A stretch of DNA of 64,000 nt, taken from assembly GCF_003704095.1 (NCBI RefSeq), contig NW_020845264.1, forward strand, positions 682,001 to 746,000. The letters run 5' to 3'. The notes under the pieces are model-generated. The model ran no database searches. It was given only the letters and a program-made list of their open reading frames with translations, and was not told the DNA's origin. A program made the position numbers and the translations under genes. Source of the DNA: Pocillopora damicornis (lineage: Eukaryota). Shown piece by piece: positions 5,701-63,772 of this stretch. How positions within the stretch are numbered: position 1 is the first letter of the stretch; the number at the start of each line of letters is the position of its first letter.

Positions 5701-8209
5701 ACAAAAATTATTTCCTAATTCAAAGTTATGAAGAACATAAAACCATAAGACTCCTTTCTTGTGTTTTCCAGGTGCAACAGGCCTAGGTAAATCAACCATG
5801 GTGAACACTTTATTTAAAGGAAGATTGAGTAGGATATCTTCCACTGGAGCCACTCCCTGTATTCCCAAGACTGTTGAAGTCAAATCAGTTAGTCATGGTG
5901 TGTTTGGTTTCGTTGCTATCTTATACTTAGCTTTGTTTTTTCTTTGTTATTTTTTTCTTTTTGGGTGAGATATGGTACCTGGAATGTTTATGGCAGCAAT
6001 AACGTAAATCCTTATAAATATCATTATAAGCTTAAATTTTATTTCTTAATTTTCAGTTATTGAGGAAAAAGGAGTCAGATTGAAACTTACCATCACAGAC
6101 ACACCTGGGTTTGGTGATCAGATCAATAATGAAAGTTGGTAAGGCTGTTGTACTGTTCATTACCTAAGTATGGTTTTGTACTTGCACATCATGTACTCTA
6201 ACTCTTATGGCAAATCCTGCCAGTTGGTTGTAAGTATTTGAGCAGCATTTCATGGCATATGTTCAATTTATTTAATCTATGAGATTTTACTCATATTTAC
6301 TCAAACTTGAATCACTTGTATTTAGTGGAGTGGGGAATTCTTTAGACAAAAATGAAGGTAAAAGAGGGAACATTTGAAGGTCTGTTTGATAATGACAATA
6401 GTTATTTCATGTGTTTTTGTATAATGTTGTAACAGCTGGGACCCAATTCTGCAGTACATAAATGAACAGTACAACAAATATTTGAAAGAAGAAACTAGCA
6501 TCAACAGAAAGCCTCGAGTCCCTGACAGCAGAGTTCACTGCTGTCTGTACTTTATTGCACCAACAGGTCACAGGTGGGTTCATGTTAAGAACAGAAAATA
6601 TATCTATTAATTCTCTAACAAATCATCAAAAGTCTTTGTTGTAAGTTACTGGAATACTGAAAAGTTATGGACAGCTTTATATGTAAAAGTTTGACCAAGT
6701 ACTGAAGTGTCTTACTTCCAATTTGCTTTTTGTACATTTAGGTATGGAATGTATGTGAAGTTTCTTTTGCAAATGTTAATAAACACCTTTACATGTACAT
6801 CTGCCATAACAACTGTTTGCAATGCACATCAAGAAAAGCATTCGAGGTGTTAAAAATGAAGTGGCTGGCCTACTGATAGGTGATGTGCATTTGTTCATTC
6901 CAATCAGTGACTTATGTCTTGAAATTTTTACAGGTTGAGGCCTATTGATGTGGAATTCATGAAACGACTAGACAAGTGCGTTAATATTGTGCCAGTGATT
7001 GCAAAGGCAGACACTCTAACTGTTGAAGAACGTGAAGCCTTCAGAAGGAGGGTACAGGCAAACTTATGTGAATTTTCATGTATTTCCTGGTTGATTTAGT
7101 TTTCCATTTTTGGACAACTGGAACTAAAATGAAATTATCACATATGTTCATATTGTAGTTACGGGAGGATATAGAAAAAAACCGCATTAACATCTATCCC
7201 GTTCTTAATCGACATGACCTGGATGAAGAAGAAGCCCGGACAACGTCCAGAATAAGGGTCAGTAAGTAATGGAATTTATTTTCATTGTTACTGTTACACA
7301 ATTAACTTAATACATTGTTAAGTTCTCCAGAAATTGTAATTATCATTAAATGAGATGCAGTGAAATACAACATATGTTATTTGTGGTGTGTTCATAACTT
7401 AATCACTACTTTTACATACATTATTAGACGTGATGCAGATAAAAAAATTTTGTTGAGTTCGTTTTTCGGCTTTTGAGCTACAAAGCCTGAAGGAATAAAT
7501 ACTGATGTAGTTCACATTGCCTGGCAGTGGTCTATCTCAACGTTAGCTTGTTCGCTTTTCAAAACGCTCTGTTTGCGCCATGTCTTTTTAGGATCAGCTG
7601 CCTTTTGCTGTGATTGGTAGCGATCGTTACGTTACTGTGTCAGGAAAGCCAGTTCTTGGAAGGAAGACAAAATGGGGTCTGATCGAAGGTAAGGAGAATT
7701 TGCAGACATTCTGGCTAGTGTTAAAAATGTTTCTGTTATTGTTGTTCATTTTCTAGAGGTAATTTCTTTTATTATTTCTTTTCAGTTGAAAACAAAAACC
7801 ATTGTGAATTTTCTCAGTTACGGGACATGTTAATCAAGTAAGTGAAATTAGTGGACGAGCATAAGCTTTTAGAAGATAACCACCCGGGTCCAGTTTGTCA
7901 CGGTCACGGAAAGAACGTGTGGGGACTACTCAGAGCAACCGAAAGCCAGGATGGTGAATAGCTTAAAATAGAAGACGCTTTTACTTTTGGAGATTTGTAA
8001 TTCTGTAAAAGATTCAACAAACTGATAGGTTTTTTTGTTGTCTTTTTTTCCATAGAACACACATGCAAGATTTAAAGGAGGTCACAGACAACATTCATTA
8101 TGAAAATTATCGCCGCACACATCTGACAGAGGAGAAACATGAGCAAATAGTTTTAGAAAACAATGTGGTGAACATGGATGACGTGATGGGTCAGGAAAGC
8201 AAAATTTAA
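2749..8209 (+). CDS. Septin of the SEPT3/9/12 group with an N-terminal calmodulin-like (two degenerate EF-hand) lobe; 12 coding exons
   Basis: Exons 2749-2766, 2842-2872, 4688-4843, 5303-5476, 5772-5897, 6057-6138, 6436-6573, 6934-7051, 7159-7257, 7592-7688, 7786-7837, 8056-8209. All introns are GT-AG and phase-consistent. Septin motifs: [30 protein letters not shown]-loop [42 protein letters not shown], septin unique element [19 protein letters not shown]...[10 protein letters not shown]. No C-terminal coiled coil, typical of the SEPT3 group. Confidence 0.93.
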
Positions 8210-8694
8210 ATAAAGCATGAAGGATAAGCAGAATAAATTTTTTACTAGAGATTCTCGGTCTTATCAGACTCAGTCAAGAAAGATTCAATACTATGTAAGT
8301 TGTTTGCTACTCCATATATGAACAATTTAGTCTTTGTTACAATTATCAATGTCGAAAATTTACTTCTTTGAAAGTTTTCATGGTGCACTATGTATTGAGA
8401 AACTCCATCGTAAAGGTTTGTTCGAAATGGTGCGGCTAACTTTTCTCCATCCCTATTATATTATGCGTAGGAATTCATTAAGATTTGGAATTCGTATCCT
8501 TTGGCTGCCTGGATTAAAAGAGTTATTGATATCAACAATTTCAAACATTATAAGCTTGTTATGAATAGCAATTTGTTAAAATAAATTAAACTCAAAGTTG
8601 TTTCTTCAATAAAACGTAAGTGACAATACGTAGCCATTGTTGGTGTCAGTGGCCTGGTGTTAAACGGTATACGGGGATGTGAATGGCGTTCCCG

Positions 8695-9341
8695 TCAAAC
8701 GCTTGTTTCGGCAGAGTGAGGATGATATATCCACATTTTGTGCCATCAATGACTCGAAGTCCTAGTTGTCCCAAACTGTAGCCGCTTGTCTACTGAGTTT
8801 ACTTGAAGGAAATTTTAATTCAATCACACCACGTGATATCCCTGAACAAAAAATCACCCACGCTAATCCAGGGCGGCGCGAATGGCAAGTTGTTGCAACA
8901 TTGCAAGGAATGGGGATTTTAATCAGTTTTTTATCTCTCTTTTTTAAAAAACGCTTCAAACTCAATGCCGGAGTTTGTGCGCTCTTAATCAATAAAACAG
9001 CAACTGTGCTCGGATTCAAAACAACATCAAACGCTTGTTTCGGCAGAGCGGGGATGATATATCAACATTTTGTGCCATTAATAAATCAAAATCCCAGTTG
9101 TCCCAAGCTGTAGCCGCTTGTGGACTGAGTTTACTGGAAGGAACTTTTTATTCAATCACACCACGTGATAGCCCTGAACAAAAAATCACCCACGCTAATT
9201 CAGGGCGGCGCTAATGACAAGTTATTGCAACATTATAAGGAGTGGAGATTTTAATCTGTTTTTAATCTCTTCTTAAAAAACGCTTCAAACTCATTGCCGG
9301 AGTTTGTGCGCTCTTAATCATTTAAACAGCAACTGTGCTCG
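8695..9341. repeat. Two-copy tandem duplication, period about 332 bp
   Basis: tcaaacgcttgtttcggcagag... begins at 8695 and 9027. Both copies end aaacagcaactgtgctcg (9012, 9341), with scattered substitutions. Confidence 0.9.
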
Positions 9342-10370
9342 AGCCCAAAAAATCTTGATGTCGATCAGAGATACGGTCAAGTGAGGGCTTGTCATCCCTG
9401 AGGCTTTGTATTATTCCAAAGCACGAATGCTTGAACAGGTAAGAAATGATTAAAATTTCCTATATCAAGTTTAATTATCAACCCCTACACCGTCTGACAA
9501 TTTTCGTCTACCTTCTCAGGCCTGTTAAATTTTTTAAGGCCTTGATTCTTATTGTAACAATCACGGTACCAGCTGACAGAAACAATAGATTGACATCGCT
9601 ATTGAAAAGAGAAGGAAAATGTGATTCTTGTTTTCGACTCAGTCACGGGTTTTTTGAGACCCAAAAGTAGTCATCGTTATTCTTGCTTTGTAGGAATAAA
9701 CCGATACCTTATCACCGAGCCCGGTTTCAGTCTTTCCAGAAGTTCCGAAAGAGAAGCGCCCTTCCTTCATTCAGTGCGTCATGTTAATATGTGACCACGT
9801 TGTCGTGGGCCCTGGGGAGATCTTTGCATTCTTCTCAGTTGGTTTTTTGTTGTCAGTGCGCCCCTGTCGGTGTGAAACTTGAACTTTAACTTTTTGTATC
9901 CTTAGCAACGAATTGTGCACGCAAATCATCCCTGAAAAACAACGATAGTTTCTAGAAAATTATCATGATCGATTTGTTCTCCGGAGCGGAAAGTCGTGAG
10001 TATCATTCCCAGGTAAGGCTTTTTTATTGTTCAATGGACACCGCAGTTCAAAGGACATCAACACCAGTCCCCAATGCTAAACCTGTTCATATAACCTTTG
10101 TTTTGGTATCTCGTTTGAACAAAGTCTTGGCTCTCGGTTCTTCTGTATTCGTAATGGATCACTTTTATGACTTGCGAAAATATTTGTTTATGTTGAAACG
10201 CAGCTGCCGAGAAGTGCTCTCCTCAGTGGATTTAAAAACTGCGAACAGCAATGAACCGGACCAGTATTGAAAGACTGTGCCTTTAAACAAAACAAAACAA
10301 AAGAAGATTCGCAAAAGTGCCTTCGTTTTAACACCTTAAGTTGCATTGTCTGAAGTCTCGGACATCCTGG

Positions 10371-10622
10371 GTGTAACATGGTAATTTGGTATTATCAACT
10401 AAGGTGATAACGTAAATTGGCCACTATTAAGAGTTTCAAAGCTGACGTTTCGAGTGCTATCCCTTCGTCAGAGCGAAAAATGAAAATGAGTAAAGGGGGC
10501 GTTAGCACTTCGTCATTCGCTCTGACGAAGGGCTGACGCTCGAAATGTCAGCTTCACAACTCCTGACGGTGGCCAATTTATCTTATCAACTCAGTTGATA
10601 ATACCAAATTACCTTGTTATAC
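10371..10622. mobile_element. Palindromic element of two inverted Penelope-like terminal repeats, each with a minimal hammerhead-ribozyme-like core
   Basis: About 105-bp imperfect inverted arms (10371-10476 and 10516-10622). Cores: gctCTGACGAagggctgacgctcGAAAtGTCagc (+, 10519-10552) and gctCTGACGAagggatagcactcGAAAcGTCagc (-, 10441-10474). Confidence 0.7.
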
Positions 10623-11310
10623 TCTTTGTTGTCGCAAAAACGTAGCACCACAGTTTCCTTAGAAGCTTATACCCCCGTTATCCTTTCTGTAATTTTCCTT
10701 TTAATGTAGATCCAGAAGAATTGAAGTTTAGTTGCAATGGCCTTTGAAATCGCCGTATATATTGATTACTTTATAATAAAAGGATTAAACGGATTAAGCC
10801 TAGACATGATTGATCGCACCCGCACGGTCTTTTTTTCTATTATTATTATTACGACAGATACTGCCCCATAATATACGTAAGTGTAACTTAAAGCCCGTTG
10901 TATTATTAGATCCTCTTACCGGTAACATTTCAATACTACACGTGGATAACCCAGGATATTTACGTCACATGCGTTGTCATAAATGCTTAGAAACCTGTCC
11001 TCTTTGCAAAGAAACACTTTTGCCACAAGTCAACGACTACGAAACCTACTTGATAGGGAATAATCAGTAAAAAGCCTTTTATGAAAAAAAGTACAGGGGG
11101 CGCTGCTCAGTTGCAAAATTAGTAAAGGCGAAGGATTAAACATGACAGGTGAATATTGGAACAAAAGGTGGGTTAGGTGTCAAAGGTATTTAGGCCATGA
11201 AAATGCAATCAGAGATGCTTTGGAATTTTTTGGCTTTCACCGCGCAGTATCGTGCATGAGTTAAGAGAATAAACAGGATCCTTCGCTGAGGAAAAGTAAA
11301 CTGATTTAAC

Positions 11311-12354
11311 ATGCCTCGTTCATTCACAATTAGGAGACTGCCTGAGCCAAAACGTTCAAACACATCACAAACTGCTGGTAAGGCTTCATTTTACCGAAAT
11401 ATCGTGAGATTTTTCCGACCTTTTCATTGATACAGCATTCTTTAAATTTAAGTGACCGAGAAACGAGGAGGTAACCAATAAATGAAAAGAAAAAAAAGGA
11501 CCCTCTTTATTAGGCTTTGTATGTGGTGTTCCCCAAATAGATACCGAGCTTTAAACGTAATGGAGTATGTGAAACGCTACCAATAATTCGAGTTAAAAAA
11601 GTTCAAAATTCTTCCGAAACATCCTTTGTCCACAAAATAATGAAGTCTATAATGTTCACTGGCAGCTTCGGTTTTGAAGTCGTCCGCCTTTGAAGACCTT
11701 TAGAATACGCTGGTCATGAAACTTTCCTTATCATTTGTAGGAAAGGATAAAAGTGAACGAGAACCAAAAGTCCTGAGATATCCAGATGCAGATAACACAA
11801 CAGTGGGAACTGAAACTAGCCAAGCAGGAAATGACTGGAGTGTTACACAAGAATCAGTAGATAGGAGCCAATTACAGGAGAGTGCAAGGGAATCTGCAGA
11901 GGGTCTCTCCTTTTCCATAGAAAAAATCCTAGCGTGGCCTGCCTCTGAAGCAAAACGTACCACGCGGAAACCTCTTATTAAACAGCCCAGCAATAGGACA
12001 AAGTACCACTGCCCTCACTGCCGAAAAGTCTTTAAAACGAGTTACACTTTTGGAAAACACATGAGAATGCCCGAGCACACGAGTGACAAGCCATTTGCAT
12101 GTCGAACATGTGGTAAAGGTTTTCGTCTCTCCAGTACGCTGTGCAGACACAAGATCATCCATACCAATCAGCGACCCTTCAAATGTCCCGTTTGTGGCAA
12201 AGCCTTCAATCGTCAATCTACACTAAACACACATCACAAAACCCATAAAGGCCTAGTAACGAATGACAACAGTGTCGACCAGCAAAGCTTCGGCTGCGTT
12301 GAAGTCTGGTATATTAATCAAGGTGTTTGGTTAAATCAAGCATCATTGATTTAA
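11311..12354 (+). CDS. Fez/FEZF-like C2H2 zinc-finger repressor (3 fingers) with N-terminal SNAG-like motif and Eh1 motif; 2 exons
   Basis: Exon 1 11311-11377 ([22 protein letters not shown], donor G|gtaagg, phase 1) splices in frame to exon 2 11741-12354 (acceptor tttgtag|GA). Eh1 is LSFSIEKIL. Fingers [21 protein letters not shown] and [21 protein letters not shown] match FEZF fingers 2 and 3. Confidence 0.85.
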
Positions 12355-12454
12355 ATCTCGCATGAAAAACTTCAAATAAATTGCGTTAAACTTTATGATT
12401 GTTTCATCTCACTTTTCCATCGTGAATAATTCTTCAACTGACTACTGCAATTGT

Positions 12455-13460
12455 GAGGGGGCATTAGGGCCTTTTAGAAACCGCAAAACCAGAGAAAAAA
12501 TCATCCGAAACCGAAAAACCGAAAAAACAATTCGATCAAAACCGAAAACTGCATGAAAACTGTCAAAACCGATACATTTTCACATCCTAGTTGTTAAAAC
12601 CCTGATCGATCCGATACAGTGGTGACAAGTGGAGCGTAAAGAGTAAACTACACTAATTTCATTACAGTATTTGTGAATGCCATGGACTTGGCATTCGTAT
12701 CTTCTAGTACCTGCTTAAACTATAGACTTTATTTCAGCTGCTCTCTCGAGGACCTCGAGTGTGGTATCTGCGGACTCGGCAGCTGGTAATGGAGCCCAGT
12801 TAAACTTAGGAAATTTGCACCAAAGTCCTCTAAAGTCCTCTATAGGATTACAATTTTAACTTTGCATCTAAACTTGCCTTTCTCTCTGAAATTCTCACCG
12901 CCTTTCCCCTCTTCGTAAAAAACGCGATACAATCAACAATTGACCGTCTTCTGTTGCCGGCGCGTTTGGCACGTTGGAAGACATGGTTCGCAAACTGATC
13001 GACCTTGACTTAAGTGCTCCACATTGCAAGGTCAAAGTCTTGGGCGTCATTCAAGACGCGTGAACCCCTACGGATGGTCAAAGTCATGGGCGTCATTCAA
13101 GACGCGTGAACCCCCTAGGGATCCCTGCGATATTTCAATTGGTTTGTCACGCATTCCTCTCAATAACATTTGCGTCTCGCGAGATCAGTGGAGGCGCGTA
13201 ATATTGCCGCTCAGATCGAAGAGTAACTGAAACCCAAATACGGTAGGTCAATTAGGAAAAACTGAAAACCGCATAGAATTTCAATTCCGAAAACCTGTTG
13301 GTATTTTTCGTGAAAACCGAAAACCAAATGCTAAAAAATGGAAAATCCGCAAACCGCAATGAACACCAAAACTGAAAAAACGAAGGTTTTTGACACAAAA
13401 CCGAAAAACCGATATAAAAATAGCCAAAACCGCAAAACCAAAAGTCCAAATGCCCCCCTC
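12455..13460. mobile_element. Non-autonomous DNA transposon (about 1 kb) with short TIRs and AAACCG sub-terminal arrays
   Basis: Ends gagggggcatt (12455) and aatgcccccctc (13460). Flanks aattgt / aactgt are a possible 6-bp TSD with 1 mismatch. Dense aaaccg motifs at 12478-12572 and 13258-13440. Internal 45-bp tandem duplication at about 13030-13117. Confidence 0.75.
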
Positions 13461-61879: not shown

Positions 61880-62656
61880 TTACTTGAAATCCATCAAATA
61901 ATAATGCATCACTATCTTCATATCTTGATTGTTTGGACCCGGTTCCTGTTCCACAGCTCCTTCGTCTACAGACCCCGACCATGCCGGCATATCTTGTTTC
62001 CCAAAGTATCGAATGGTGCACCTTTCGCCAAAATTCTCAGTTATACTCTTCTCGGAAAGAAACTTGAATTGCGTCGGCGTATTCTCTGGAGACTCAGGAG
62101 CAAAGAACTCAAGAAAATAACGGCCATCTGGCTTGAGGCAGCTGAGCATGATGTCTGTGTACTGCTTGAGTCGACCTTCCCTCATCATGTTGATTGCGGT
62201 CATGGATCCGCGATCCCAGATAAAATCAAATTTACCTCCAGCTATCTTGGCCGAGAAATCGAAGATACTACACTCGTACAGTGTGATATTCTTTCCATTG
62301 TTTTTGAAAACGGTACCTTGATTCTCAGGAGACAATGACACGGATTTCTCGTTGTAGGTCAACTTGTTGTCACGAAAAAATAACTCGATTCCCTTCCGGA
62401 TCAGTTCAACACCTACAACTGAGTGTCCTTGATCGGCTAACCAGATCATGTCCAAGGACTTTCCACAAAGAGGCACCAGGACTCGGAGATTTTTTCTTCC
62501 ACGCGTAACTTCGTCATGATGTTTTGTCAACATGGCGTTCACTTCGTCAGTGTGAAATTCAGGGTTGTCGGTTTCCCAGTCTTGAGCCCATGTCTCTTTA
62601 CTTTCCATGTCAAATGAAGCAATGTGTTCTAAGTTTTCTTTAGCATCCATTTCCAC
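61880..62656 (-). CDS. TPMT: Thiopurine S-methyltransferase family protein (intronless CDS)
   Basis: 258-aa ORF with W..DW....EFH...VN, RVLVPLCGKSLDMIWLADQGHSVVGVEL and FDFIWDRGSMTAIN, all TPMT-family motifs. One-to-one orthology is not established. Confidence 0.9.
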   Translation of the reverse strand: MEMDAKENLEHIASFDMESKETWAQDWETDNPEFHTDEVNAMLTKHHDEVTRGRKNLRVLVPLCGKSLDMIWLADQGHSVVGVELIRKGIELFFRDNKLTYNEKSVSLSPENQGTVFKNNGKNITLYECSIFDFSAKIAGGKFDFIWDRGSMTAINMMREGRLKQYTDIMLSCLKPDGRYFLEFFAPESPENTPTQFKFLSEKSITENFGERCTIRYFGKQDMPAWSGSVDEGAVEQEPGPNNQDMKIVMHYYLMDFK

Positions 62657-63772
62657 CGCTTATTTACTCCAGGCACAAAGATCGAGCTTTCTGGAGTTTT
62701 CCAACGAAGACGCTGATAAAAATACTCAGTGCTGGTTGAGACTTGAGTCAAAGAGAAGACTGGAACCAACCAACCAACCAACATTTACGCATCTTCTTAC
62801 CGACGACCAAGTCACGAAAGAAGCCATTTTTCTTTCTGTGATTGATAGCGGTGGTGATTGCGTTGGTGATTAAGGGAAATTTGCTTTCTTGTATCTTCTG
62901 GCGTGATTTTTATTGCGTGTCGTTATATTCGTGACTGACTGAAAACGGATGTAGCCAATGTCACGCGACGATACTGTTAGAAACGTTCGCACTACTGAAT
63001 GAATAGTAGATTTTATGTGTGTGCGTAAGTTAAAGCACAGCTCTGGCTATGTCAACTGAATGAAGTATTGGTGTTTTTTGAATAAAAATTACGTTTACAT
63101 GGGAAGATTAGGTTTTCCTAGCCCTTTTATTTGGGTTTAAAAGTCAAACTTCGACAACTACACGAGTTTCTTTGGATTATTTTGACTTTTGGAAGAACTT
63201 TCAGAGAATTGAGTTTAGAAATTAAGTAGGCTATTTCCAAGGTGATTTTTCATACCAAATCTGAAGTGTGGAAAATTGACGTTTCATTGTAGTCTCGTAT
63301 ACCATTGTTCAATGATTGCATACGATATCTTCAATTTGACAAGAAACGTCATCTTTCGGAAAGCTTTATTAATATGAAAAAGTCGGTAGAAATTAATATC
63401 ACTCATGGCGGAATATAAAACATTTAATTTACTGCGCTCGCTTCTACCTCTTTATAGGCTAAATTAAGGCAGTTTTTCTGTTTTTTTTAATCTTTTTTTT
63501 TTTTAACTCATACTTAGACACAATTTTCAGTTTTCATCGGCTGTTGAAATAGCGCTTTTGCTCAATTTACATTGCATCAGAGAACAAATAGAAATTTTTT
63601 CTTTTAATTCAAATAGCAATACAATAACGAAAAAAATTATGTCTGTCTGGAGATCAACACGATAATGAACCTTGGTAAGGGAAAATTCTATTTACTCTTG
63701 CTTTATGAAATCTTTACAAGGAAATAGGTTTACCTGCGCCATTTTTTTTATGTGAAAAATCTTACGAGGGTC

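What the first reader, a model, noticed from the sequence alone, without database searches (positions are those of the whole stretch)
11311..11940. Hidden first exon gives a Fez-like factor a SNAG-like N-terminus in addition to its Eh1 motif
Seen: ATG 11311 encodes [10 protein letters not shown], ends at a strong donor (G|gtaagg) and joins the zinc-finger ORF in the correct phase. The ORF-track start at 11716 is then intronic. LSFSIEKIL follows at about 11905-11931. Established: SNAG (MPRSFLVKK in Snail/Gfi1/Insm) must be N-terminal and binds LSD1-CoREST. Eh1 (FSIxxIL) binds Groucho/TLE. Bilaterian Fezf proteins use Eh1, not SNAG. Inference: a dual-corepressor factor, either chimeric or retaining an ancestral Gfi/Fez state.
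Basis: partly seen in the sequence, partly recalled or inferred. Interest (0 to 1): 0.7.

Follow-up and report, generated by a model that had tools for sequence, protein, structure and literature searches.

The report
Coral Fez-like repressor with two motifs
A stony-coral, three-finger relative of the Fez transcription factors keeps the short SNAG-type first exon that is normal for cnidarian Fez genes and, unlike its sister genes, also carries an Eh1 motif, so it would likely recruit two different gene-silencing complexes, although the spliced RNAs seen here skip the SNAG start.

Summary
The exon is real but neither hidden nor odd. ATG 11311, donor 11377 and acceptor 11741 join in phase 1 into a 226-aa protein that differs at 3 positions from a public Pocillopora model. 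An MPRSF-x-[IL]-RR start is kept in five named coral genera. All four other Fez-family loci found in this genome also have a SNAG-type start upstream of the finger frame, and SNAG in cnidarian Fezf and Fezf-like genes was published in 2010 (PMC2942887). What looks new: this gene lies in a three-finger clade in which 16 of 29 clusters have an Eh1, against 0 of 154 other rows, an exception to the published SNAG-or-Fezf-box pattern. Convergent gain of Eh1 fits better than a chimera or an ancestral state. They showed an upstream non-coding exon (ending 10012) joined to 11741 or to 11334, both removing the SNAG start. Binding to LSD1 or Groucho is untested. Verdict: new variant of a known kind, modest interest.

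The parts
11311..11377 (+). First coding exon (67 nt, phase-1 donor G|gtaagg)
   Evidence: Sequence. Same exon in public models P0121/P0122. A 64-nt phase-1 counterpart in 4 of 4 orthologous loci examined (L006, L008, L009, L011). Joint to 11741 not seen in RNA contigs.
11311..11337 (+). SNAG-like start MPRSFTIRR (T and I where SNAIL1 has L and V)
   Evidence: Codons 2-9 against each of 4 related orthologous loci: 5 synonymous and 1 non-synonymous difference; upstream 60 nt only 15-20 identical.
11334..11377 (+). Part of exon 1 used from an internal acceptor (AG 11332-11333); excludes the ATG
   Evidence: Joint 10012^11334, GT..AG, one contig in polyA run X2.
11378..11740 (+). 363-nt phase-1 intron, with an in-frame ATG at 11716
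   Evidence: Sequence. Acceptor 11741 is used in RNA (X16 record 18).
11741..12354 (+). Second coding exon (linker, Eh1, three C2H2 fingers, stop)
   Evidence: Covered by contigs in all 7 runs laid.
11905..11931 (+). Eh1-type motif LSFSIEKIL, about 35 residues before finger 1
   Evidence: Score 25.6 against a profile of 12 distinct Fezf-box-type motifs, 0 of 2000 linker shuffles as high; present in 16 of 29 clade clusters.
12010..12078 (+). Zinc finger 1, Fezf-like type (five residues between the histidines)
12100..12162 (+). Zinc finger 2 (STLCRHK type shared by the Fez family)
12184..12246 (+). Zinc finger 3
12375..12395 (+). AATAAA and likely poly(A) site at 12395
   Evidence: Sequence. Run of A behind 12395 in X2, and an X6 contig ends there.
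9906..10012 (+). Upstream exon, closed in the finger frame (CAG|gtaagg donor; alternative acceptor 9694), spliced to 11741 or 11334
   Evidence: X16 record 18 joins 9874-10010 to 11739-12229; X2 joints. Stop in the finger frame a few codons before the donor. One match in the genome.
9300..9438 (+). Further upstream exon (5' end not mapped), spliced to 9694 or 9906
   Evidence: Two GT..AG joints in X2 only.

Best explanation
This is a three-finger, stony-coral paralogue of the cnidarian Fezf-like genes that kept the family's SNAG-type first exon and likely gained an Eh1 motif on its own, so the full-length protein would be a DNA-binding repressor predicted to recruit both LSD1-CoREST and Groucho/TLE. 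Shown: exon geometry, conservation of both motifs, three fingers, clade membership, and spliced RNAs from an upstream exon that skip the SNAG ATG. Inferred: after loss of the first Met, the Pro-Arg-Ser-Phe start would enter the LSD1 pocket as in SNAIL1; FSIEKIL would bind the Groucho WD domain as in vertebrate Fezf2; the full-length form would come from a start just upstream of 11311 in few cells or in a stage not sampled, while the upstream-exon RNAs would give little or no repressor.
For: Exon: joined product equals P. meandrina CAH3137106.1 except at 3 of 226 positions. SNAG-like starts in 5 of 5 named coral genera with full models in this clade (Pocillopora, Stylophora, Oculina, Desmophyllum, Orbicella). 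5 synonymous to 1 non-synonymous codon differences while flanks do not align. Family default: 4 of 4 other Fez loci in this genome have a SNAG start; PMC2942887 section 5. Eh1: 14 strict, 16 relaxed of 29 clade clusters; 0 of 154 other rows. Both motifs together only in three-finger rows (5 of 215 rows: L001, P0121, P0135, P0186, P0348). Separate gain: finger-1 spacing of five in 29 of 29 clade clusters and 135 of 136 Fezf-like rows, three in 32 of 32 true-Fezf rows; motif 32-55 residues before finger 1 against 140-479 in true-Fezf loci; Eh1 is described as often convergent (PMC1310626 passages). P1 and R2, reported as crucial for LSD1 binding (PMC5453194 passages), are kept, as is F4.
Against: No 11377^11741 joint in 7 runs; contigs in X1, X2 and X8 run unbroken across the donor. 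The spliced forms seen have no AUG frame with SNAG or Eh1, only a 97-aa frame starting inside finger 1. Positions 5-6 differ from SNAIL1 and from sister genes (F-L-L or F-L-V). Eh1 is degraded in 11 of 29 clusters, the group holding Orbicella, and out of reach in 2 short predictions. Exon 1 could not be read for the clusters around P0015, P0017-19, P0024, P0032, P0051, P0355, P0359, P0360, which have the cleanest Eh1. The tree is unrooted, quick, 92 columns, with a very long stem to this clade. No binding was tested.
Confidence: 0.62

Rival explanations
1. Hand-over in progress: the SNAG is a weakened relic and Eh1 has taken over. The working protein would start at the intronic ATG 11716 or a non-AUG codon, and upstream exons bypass the SNAG, as reported for amphioxus Fezf.
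For: Spliced RNAs skip the ATG, one by an acceptor inside the SNAG codons. Positions 5-6 drifted. Contigs in X6, X8 and X11 run from the intron into exon 2. Amphioxus has a genomic SNAG absent from transcripts (PMC2942887).
Against: SNAG codons show protein-level constraint. The group with degraded Eh1 keeps the SNAG (P0151, L006, L008, L009, L011), the opposite direction. The spliced upstream forms do not encode Eh1 either. An intronic in-frame ATG sits at different places in 3 of 4 loci and is absent in L009. Intron-covering contigs may be DNA or pre-mRNA.
Confidence: 0.17
2. Ancestral state kept: the first Fez gene had both SNAG and Eh1; this clade kept both, bilaterian Fezf lost SNAG, all other cnidarian copies lost Eh1.
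For: The motif with its flanks scores within the range of the Fezf-box-type motifs themselves (25.6 against 16-35). The clade's place among Fez genes is not resolved.
Against: Needs repeated losses: 0 of 154 other rows have it, including coral true Fezf. Named members of the clade are stony corals only; Nematostella, Exaiptasia, Hydra, Rhopilema and Dendronephthya hits are 5-6-finger types. Motif position differs.
Confidence: 0.1
3. In this lineage the gene is mostly unproductive: transcription comes from an upstream exon or read-through from the septin gene, and little full-length protein is made at any stage.
For: All spliced joints seen give no full-length frame. 7 of 10 exon-2 variants checked are non-synonymous, none of them in the fingers or Eh1. 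A septin gene ends about 3.1 kb upstream on the same strand.
Against: Frame, fingers and both motifs are intact in Pocillopora and Stylophora models; the two checked variants inside fingers are synonymous.
Confidence: 0.08
4. Chimera: a SNAG exon from a Snail/Gfi/Insm gene was shuffled onto a Fez-type finger exon.
For: Only the likeness of the first five residues to SNAIL1.
Against: The same 64-nt phase-1 first exon is in coral true Fezf (L005, L074, L079) and a similar one in a Fezf-like paralogue (L003); SNAG is ancestral for the family in PMC2942887.
Confidence: 0.03

Closest known systems
Cnidarian 'Fezf-like' genes (NveFezf3/12/30; Irimia et al. 2010, PMC2942887)
   Same: Fez-type fingers with the TKYT..H.KMP.HT-type first finger, SNAG-type start in a short first exon.
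   Different: Three fingers instead of five or six; has an Eh1, which the paper says Fezf-like genes lack (as 'Fezf box'); SNAG positions 5-6 changed.
Bilaterian Fezf1/Fezf2/Earmuff
   Same: Eh1 that binds TLE in Xenopus Fezf2 (PMC4299278 passages); shared STLCRHK finger.
   Different: Not the orthologue (L005 is); three fingers, different finger 1, Eh1 close to the fingers, SNAG kept.
Amphioxus Fezf (PMC2942887)
   Same: SNAG coded in the genome next to a second repression motif, and transcripts examined lack the SNAG.
   Different: True six-finger Fezf; here the SNAG codons are demonstrably constrained across genera.
SNAG proteins (SNAIL1, INSM1, GFI1)
   Same: N-terminal P-R-S-F; predicted LSD1 hook.
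   Different: T/S/A and I/L at positions 5-6; different fingers.
Repressors with several corepressor motifs (Drosophila Snail, Schnurri; PMC9890238 passages)
   Same: One factor with motifs for different corepressors is an established arrangement.
   Different: This SNAG plus Eh1 pair in a Fez protein was not found in my searches.

Membership tests
Canonical Fezf | Six C2H2 fingers | tested here: not met
   Three fingers, then a stop at 12354 and a poly(A) site at 12395.
Canonical Fezf | Groups with Fezf orthologues; NAHYNL-type finger 1 | tested here: not met
   Separate clade; finger-1 spacing differs; L005 is the genome's true Fezf.
Cnidarian Fezf-like | Fez-type fingers outside the Fezf clade | tested here: met
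   Finger-1 spacing shared with 135 of 136 Fezf-like rows; exact position unresolved.
Cnidarian Fezf-like | N-terminal SNAG | tested here: met
   Variant SNAG kept in five named genera.
Cnidarian Fezf-like | No Fezf box | tested here: not met
   Eh1 present. That the paper's 'Fezf box' is the Eh1 is my reading: its Figure 2B was not visible; support from PMC1310626.
SNAG motif | Lies at the very N-terminus of the protein made | tested here: inconclusive
   True for the gene model; RNA contigs seen skip the ATG.
SNAG motif | P1, R2 and F4 as in SNAIL1 | tested here: met
   Sequence; P1 and R2 crucial per PMC5453194. Basic residue at 7 also kept (its importance is recalled, not read).
SNAG motif | L5-V6 as in SNAIL1 | tested here: not met
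   T-I here; T-L, S-I, A-I in orthologues. No Pfam or PDB hit for the 22-aa exon.
SNAG motif | Binds LSD1-CoREST | not testable with these tools
   No LSD1 sequence obtained; no complex job sent.
Eh1 motif | F-S-I-x-x-I-L core, conserved among orthologues | tested here: met
   FSIEKIL; 16 of 29 clusters; 0 of 2000 shuffles.
Eh1 motif | Binds the Groucho/TLE WD domain | not tested
   Needs a binding assay; a fold would pass by likeness to solved pairs.

The most novel reading that the evidence does not exclude
Stony corals have independently started the SNAG-to-Eh1 corepressor swap that bilaterian Fezf completed: a three-finger Fez paralogue holds both motifs, one coral lineage has since lost the Eh1, and choice of first exon switches the repressor on or off, with one acceptor cutting through the SNAG codons. 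It would be a living, testable intermediate for the published idea that SNAG is lost once another corepressor motif is gained.
Probability: 0.25. Interest if true: 0.6.

Novelty: new variant of a known kind. Interest (0 to 1): 0.33.

Why it matters
PMC2942887 reported a clear inverse relation between SNAG and the Fezf box and proposed that one replaces the other. A coral clade with both, plus a sub-group that dropped the Eh1, is a natural test of whether the motifs are redundant or additive. It is of interest to people working on transcription-factor motif evolution and cnidarian neurogenesis. It is not a new mechanism: both motifs, multi-corepressor factors and the SNAG exon in cnidarian Fez genes are known, and the gene model is public.

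Tried and rejected
The search of protein representatives with alignment A1 was swamped by long multi-finger proteins and gave nothing usable. Pfam and PDB searches with the 22-aa exon found nothing; too short to be informative. A SWIRM search of the genome gave 3 hits, none recognisable as LSD1 (MYSM1-, SMARCC- and ADA2-like by my reading), so no complex prediction was sent; it would also pass by likeness to solved pairs. The careful tree did not finish; the quick tree was used. Baron et al. 2011 (PMC3059804) is not held, so tolerance at SNAG positions 5-6 was not read. Two look-ups in earlier findings returned nothing. blastn and tblastx of window 6001-11740 against 7 orthologous loci gave no hit, so conservation of the upstream exon and of septin synteny is not shown either way. 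Rejected: that the N-terminus is a second Eh1 (the last hydrophobic positions are not kept across orthologues); that the upstream exon is a common repeat (one match, with that tool's caveat); that the upstream exon supplies another coding start (closed frame). Contigs of four RNA-type runs begin at 11067-11150, which could mark a start for the SNAG exon, but runs were chosen by words from 11150 on, so I do not count it. Not-in-print claim rests on 8 searches of open papers, read as listings; subscription papers, figures and supplements were not seen.

Full report
Observation. The protein has three C2H2 fingers. The joined frame gives 226 aa and differs at 3 positions from Pocillopora meandrina CAH3137106.1 and at 6 from P. 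verrucosa XP_058958794.1, named 'fez family zinc finger protein 1-like'. The exon is therefore already in public gene models; whether those models rest on RNA I could not see.

The exon is conserved. Full models in the same clade start MPRSFTLRRL (Stylophora), [10 protein letters not shown] (Oculina), MPRSFAIRRN (Desmophyllum) and MPRSFSIRRN (Orbicella). Of 8 three-finger metagenome loci, 5 show the start upstream of the finger frame; L007, L010 and L013 have little or no upstream DNA. In the 4 examined in detail the exon is 64 nt with a phase-1 G|gtaagg donor. Over codons 2-9 each differs from the window by 5 synonymous and 1 non-synonymous codon, while flanks do not align. These four are related to each other and count as about one comparison.

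SNAG is the family default. The genome search found four other Fez-type loci, all with a SNAG start upstream of the finger frame. L005 is the true Fezf, with a 64-nt phase-1 first exon. Irimia et al. 2010 (PMC2942887; passages and section 5 read) state that non-bilaterian Fezf and cnidarian Fezf-like proteins have a SNAG, that bilaterian Fezf has a 'Fezf box' instead, that the two are inversely related, and that amphioxus has a genomic SNAG left out of its transcripts. A chimera is not needed.

The Eh1 is the unusual part. Three protein searches converge on 29 three-finger clusters, one clade with SH-aLRT 100 on a long stem in a quick unrooted tree of 161 rows and 92 columns. Named members are stony corals; the other members are unnamed. 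An Eh1-type motif is in 14 (strict) or 16 (relaxed) of the 29, degraded in 11 and out of reach in 2 short predictions. It is in 0 of 154 other Fez and Fez-like rows; 17 true-Fezf loci that carry such a motif were set aside to build the profile. In the 215-row tally only 5 rows have both motifs, all three-finger, from four genera. Many rows are unspliced predictions that cannot show a SNAG, so that count is a lower bound. Finger 1 has five residues between its histidines in 29 of 29 clade clusters and 135 of 136 Fezf-like rows, and three in 32 of 32 true-Fezf rows. The motif lies 32-55 residues before finger 1 here, and 140-479 in true-Fezf loci. With Eh1 known to arise convergently (PMC1310626, passages), a separate gain in this clade is the simplest reading. 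It is an inference: the tree does not place the clade. That the 'Fezf box' equals Eh1 is my reading; the figure was not visible.

RNA runs against the simple model. Seven distinct runs were laid, all as contigs. None listed the 11377^11741 joint, and contigs in X1, X2 and X8 cross the donor unbroken. Instead, X16 record 18 joins 9874-10010 to 11739-12229; an X2 contig joins exon 2 to letters mapping to 9985-10000; and X2 shows GT..AG joints 9438^9694, 9438^9906 and 10012^11334, the last landing inside the SNAG codons. Contigs in X1 and X14 begin at 11739, as the 10012 joint predicts. None of these spliced forms has an AUG frame with SNAG or Eh1; the first in-frame AUG is inside finger 1 and gives 97 aa. 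One weak hint that donor 11377 is used: in X2 a joint of depth 27 enters at 11334 but the contig that continues through the intron has depth 11.3, like the background, so those molecules probably leave at 11377. Contig depth is a poor measure, contigs drop rare forms, and 16 joint rows were hidden. The full-length mRNA is thus neither shown nor excluded. The life stage of the samples is unknown to me.

How it most likely works. Inferred, untested: the full-length protein binds DNA with three fingers; its exposed P-R-S-F start docks in LSD1 as SNAIL1 does (P1 and R2 crucial; PMC5453194 passages); its Eh1 binds Groucho as Xenopus Fezf2 binds TLEs (PMC4299278 passages). A CoREST complex exists in Nematostella (PMC9400249, listing and passages; no mention of Fez). 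The constraint on the SNAG codons argues that this form is made somewhere, probably in few cells or a stage not sampled. The changes at positions 5-6 leave the LSD1 step the least certain.

Novelty. Known: the motifs, SNAG in cnidarian Fez genes, factors with several corepressor motifs (PMC9890238 passages), and this gene model. Not found in 8 searches of open papers: a description of this three-finger clade or of SNAG with Eh1 in one cnidarian Fez protein. PMC3342872 (passages) repeats only the SNAG-loss view. Verdict: new variant of a known kind, interest 0.33.

Noticed in passing
window 5741-8209 (+): Multi-exon septin gene ending about 3.1 kb upstream on the same strand; four exons hit PF00735. 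Read-through into the upstream exons is possible but was not tested.
   Followed up: partly
window 10390-10625: Very abundant repeat with inverted parts (summed contig depth above 15,000 in RNA-type runs) inside the intron that follows the upstream exon.
   Followed up: no
window 12457-13460: About 1-kb element just downstream of the gene whose ends look like inverted repeats by eye; repeat-like. Probably a non-autonomous transposon.
   Followed up: no
window 8700-9350: Tandem duplication of roughly 300 bp, seen as near-identical translations.
   Followed up: no
window 61883-62659 (-): 259-aa open frame matching thiopurine S-methyltransferase, PF05724, E 5.8e-40.
   Followed up: no
L002-L005 (G000 contigs C4119, C2377, C770, C3420): Three 5-6-finger Fezf-like paralogues and the true Fezf, each with a SNAG start and no Eh1.
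   Followed up: yes
L042, L044: A divergent six-finger Fezf-like type on a long branch, with a finger 1 resembling the three-finger clade and no SNAG found by my pattern.
   Followed up: no
P0151, L006-L012 group: Sub-group including Orbicella in which the Eh1 is degraded and the following residues deleted, while the SNAG exon is kept where it could be read.
   Followed up: partly
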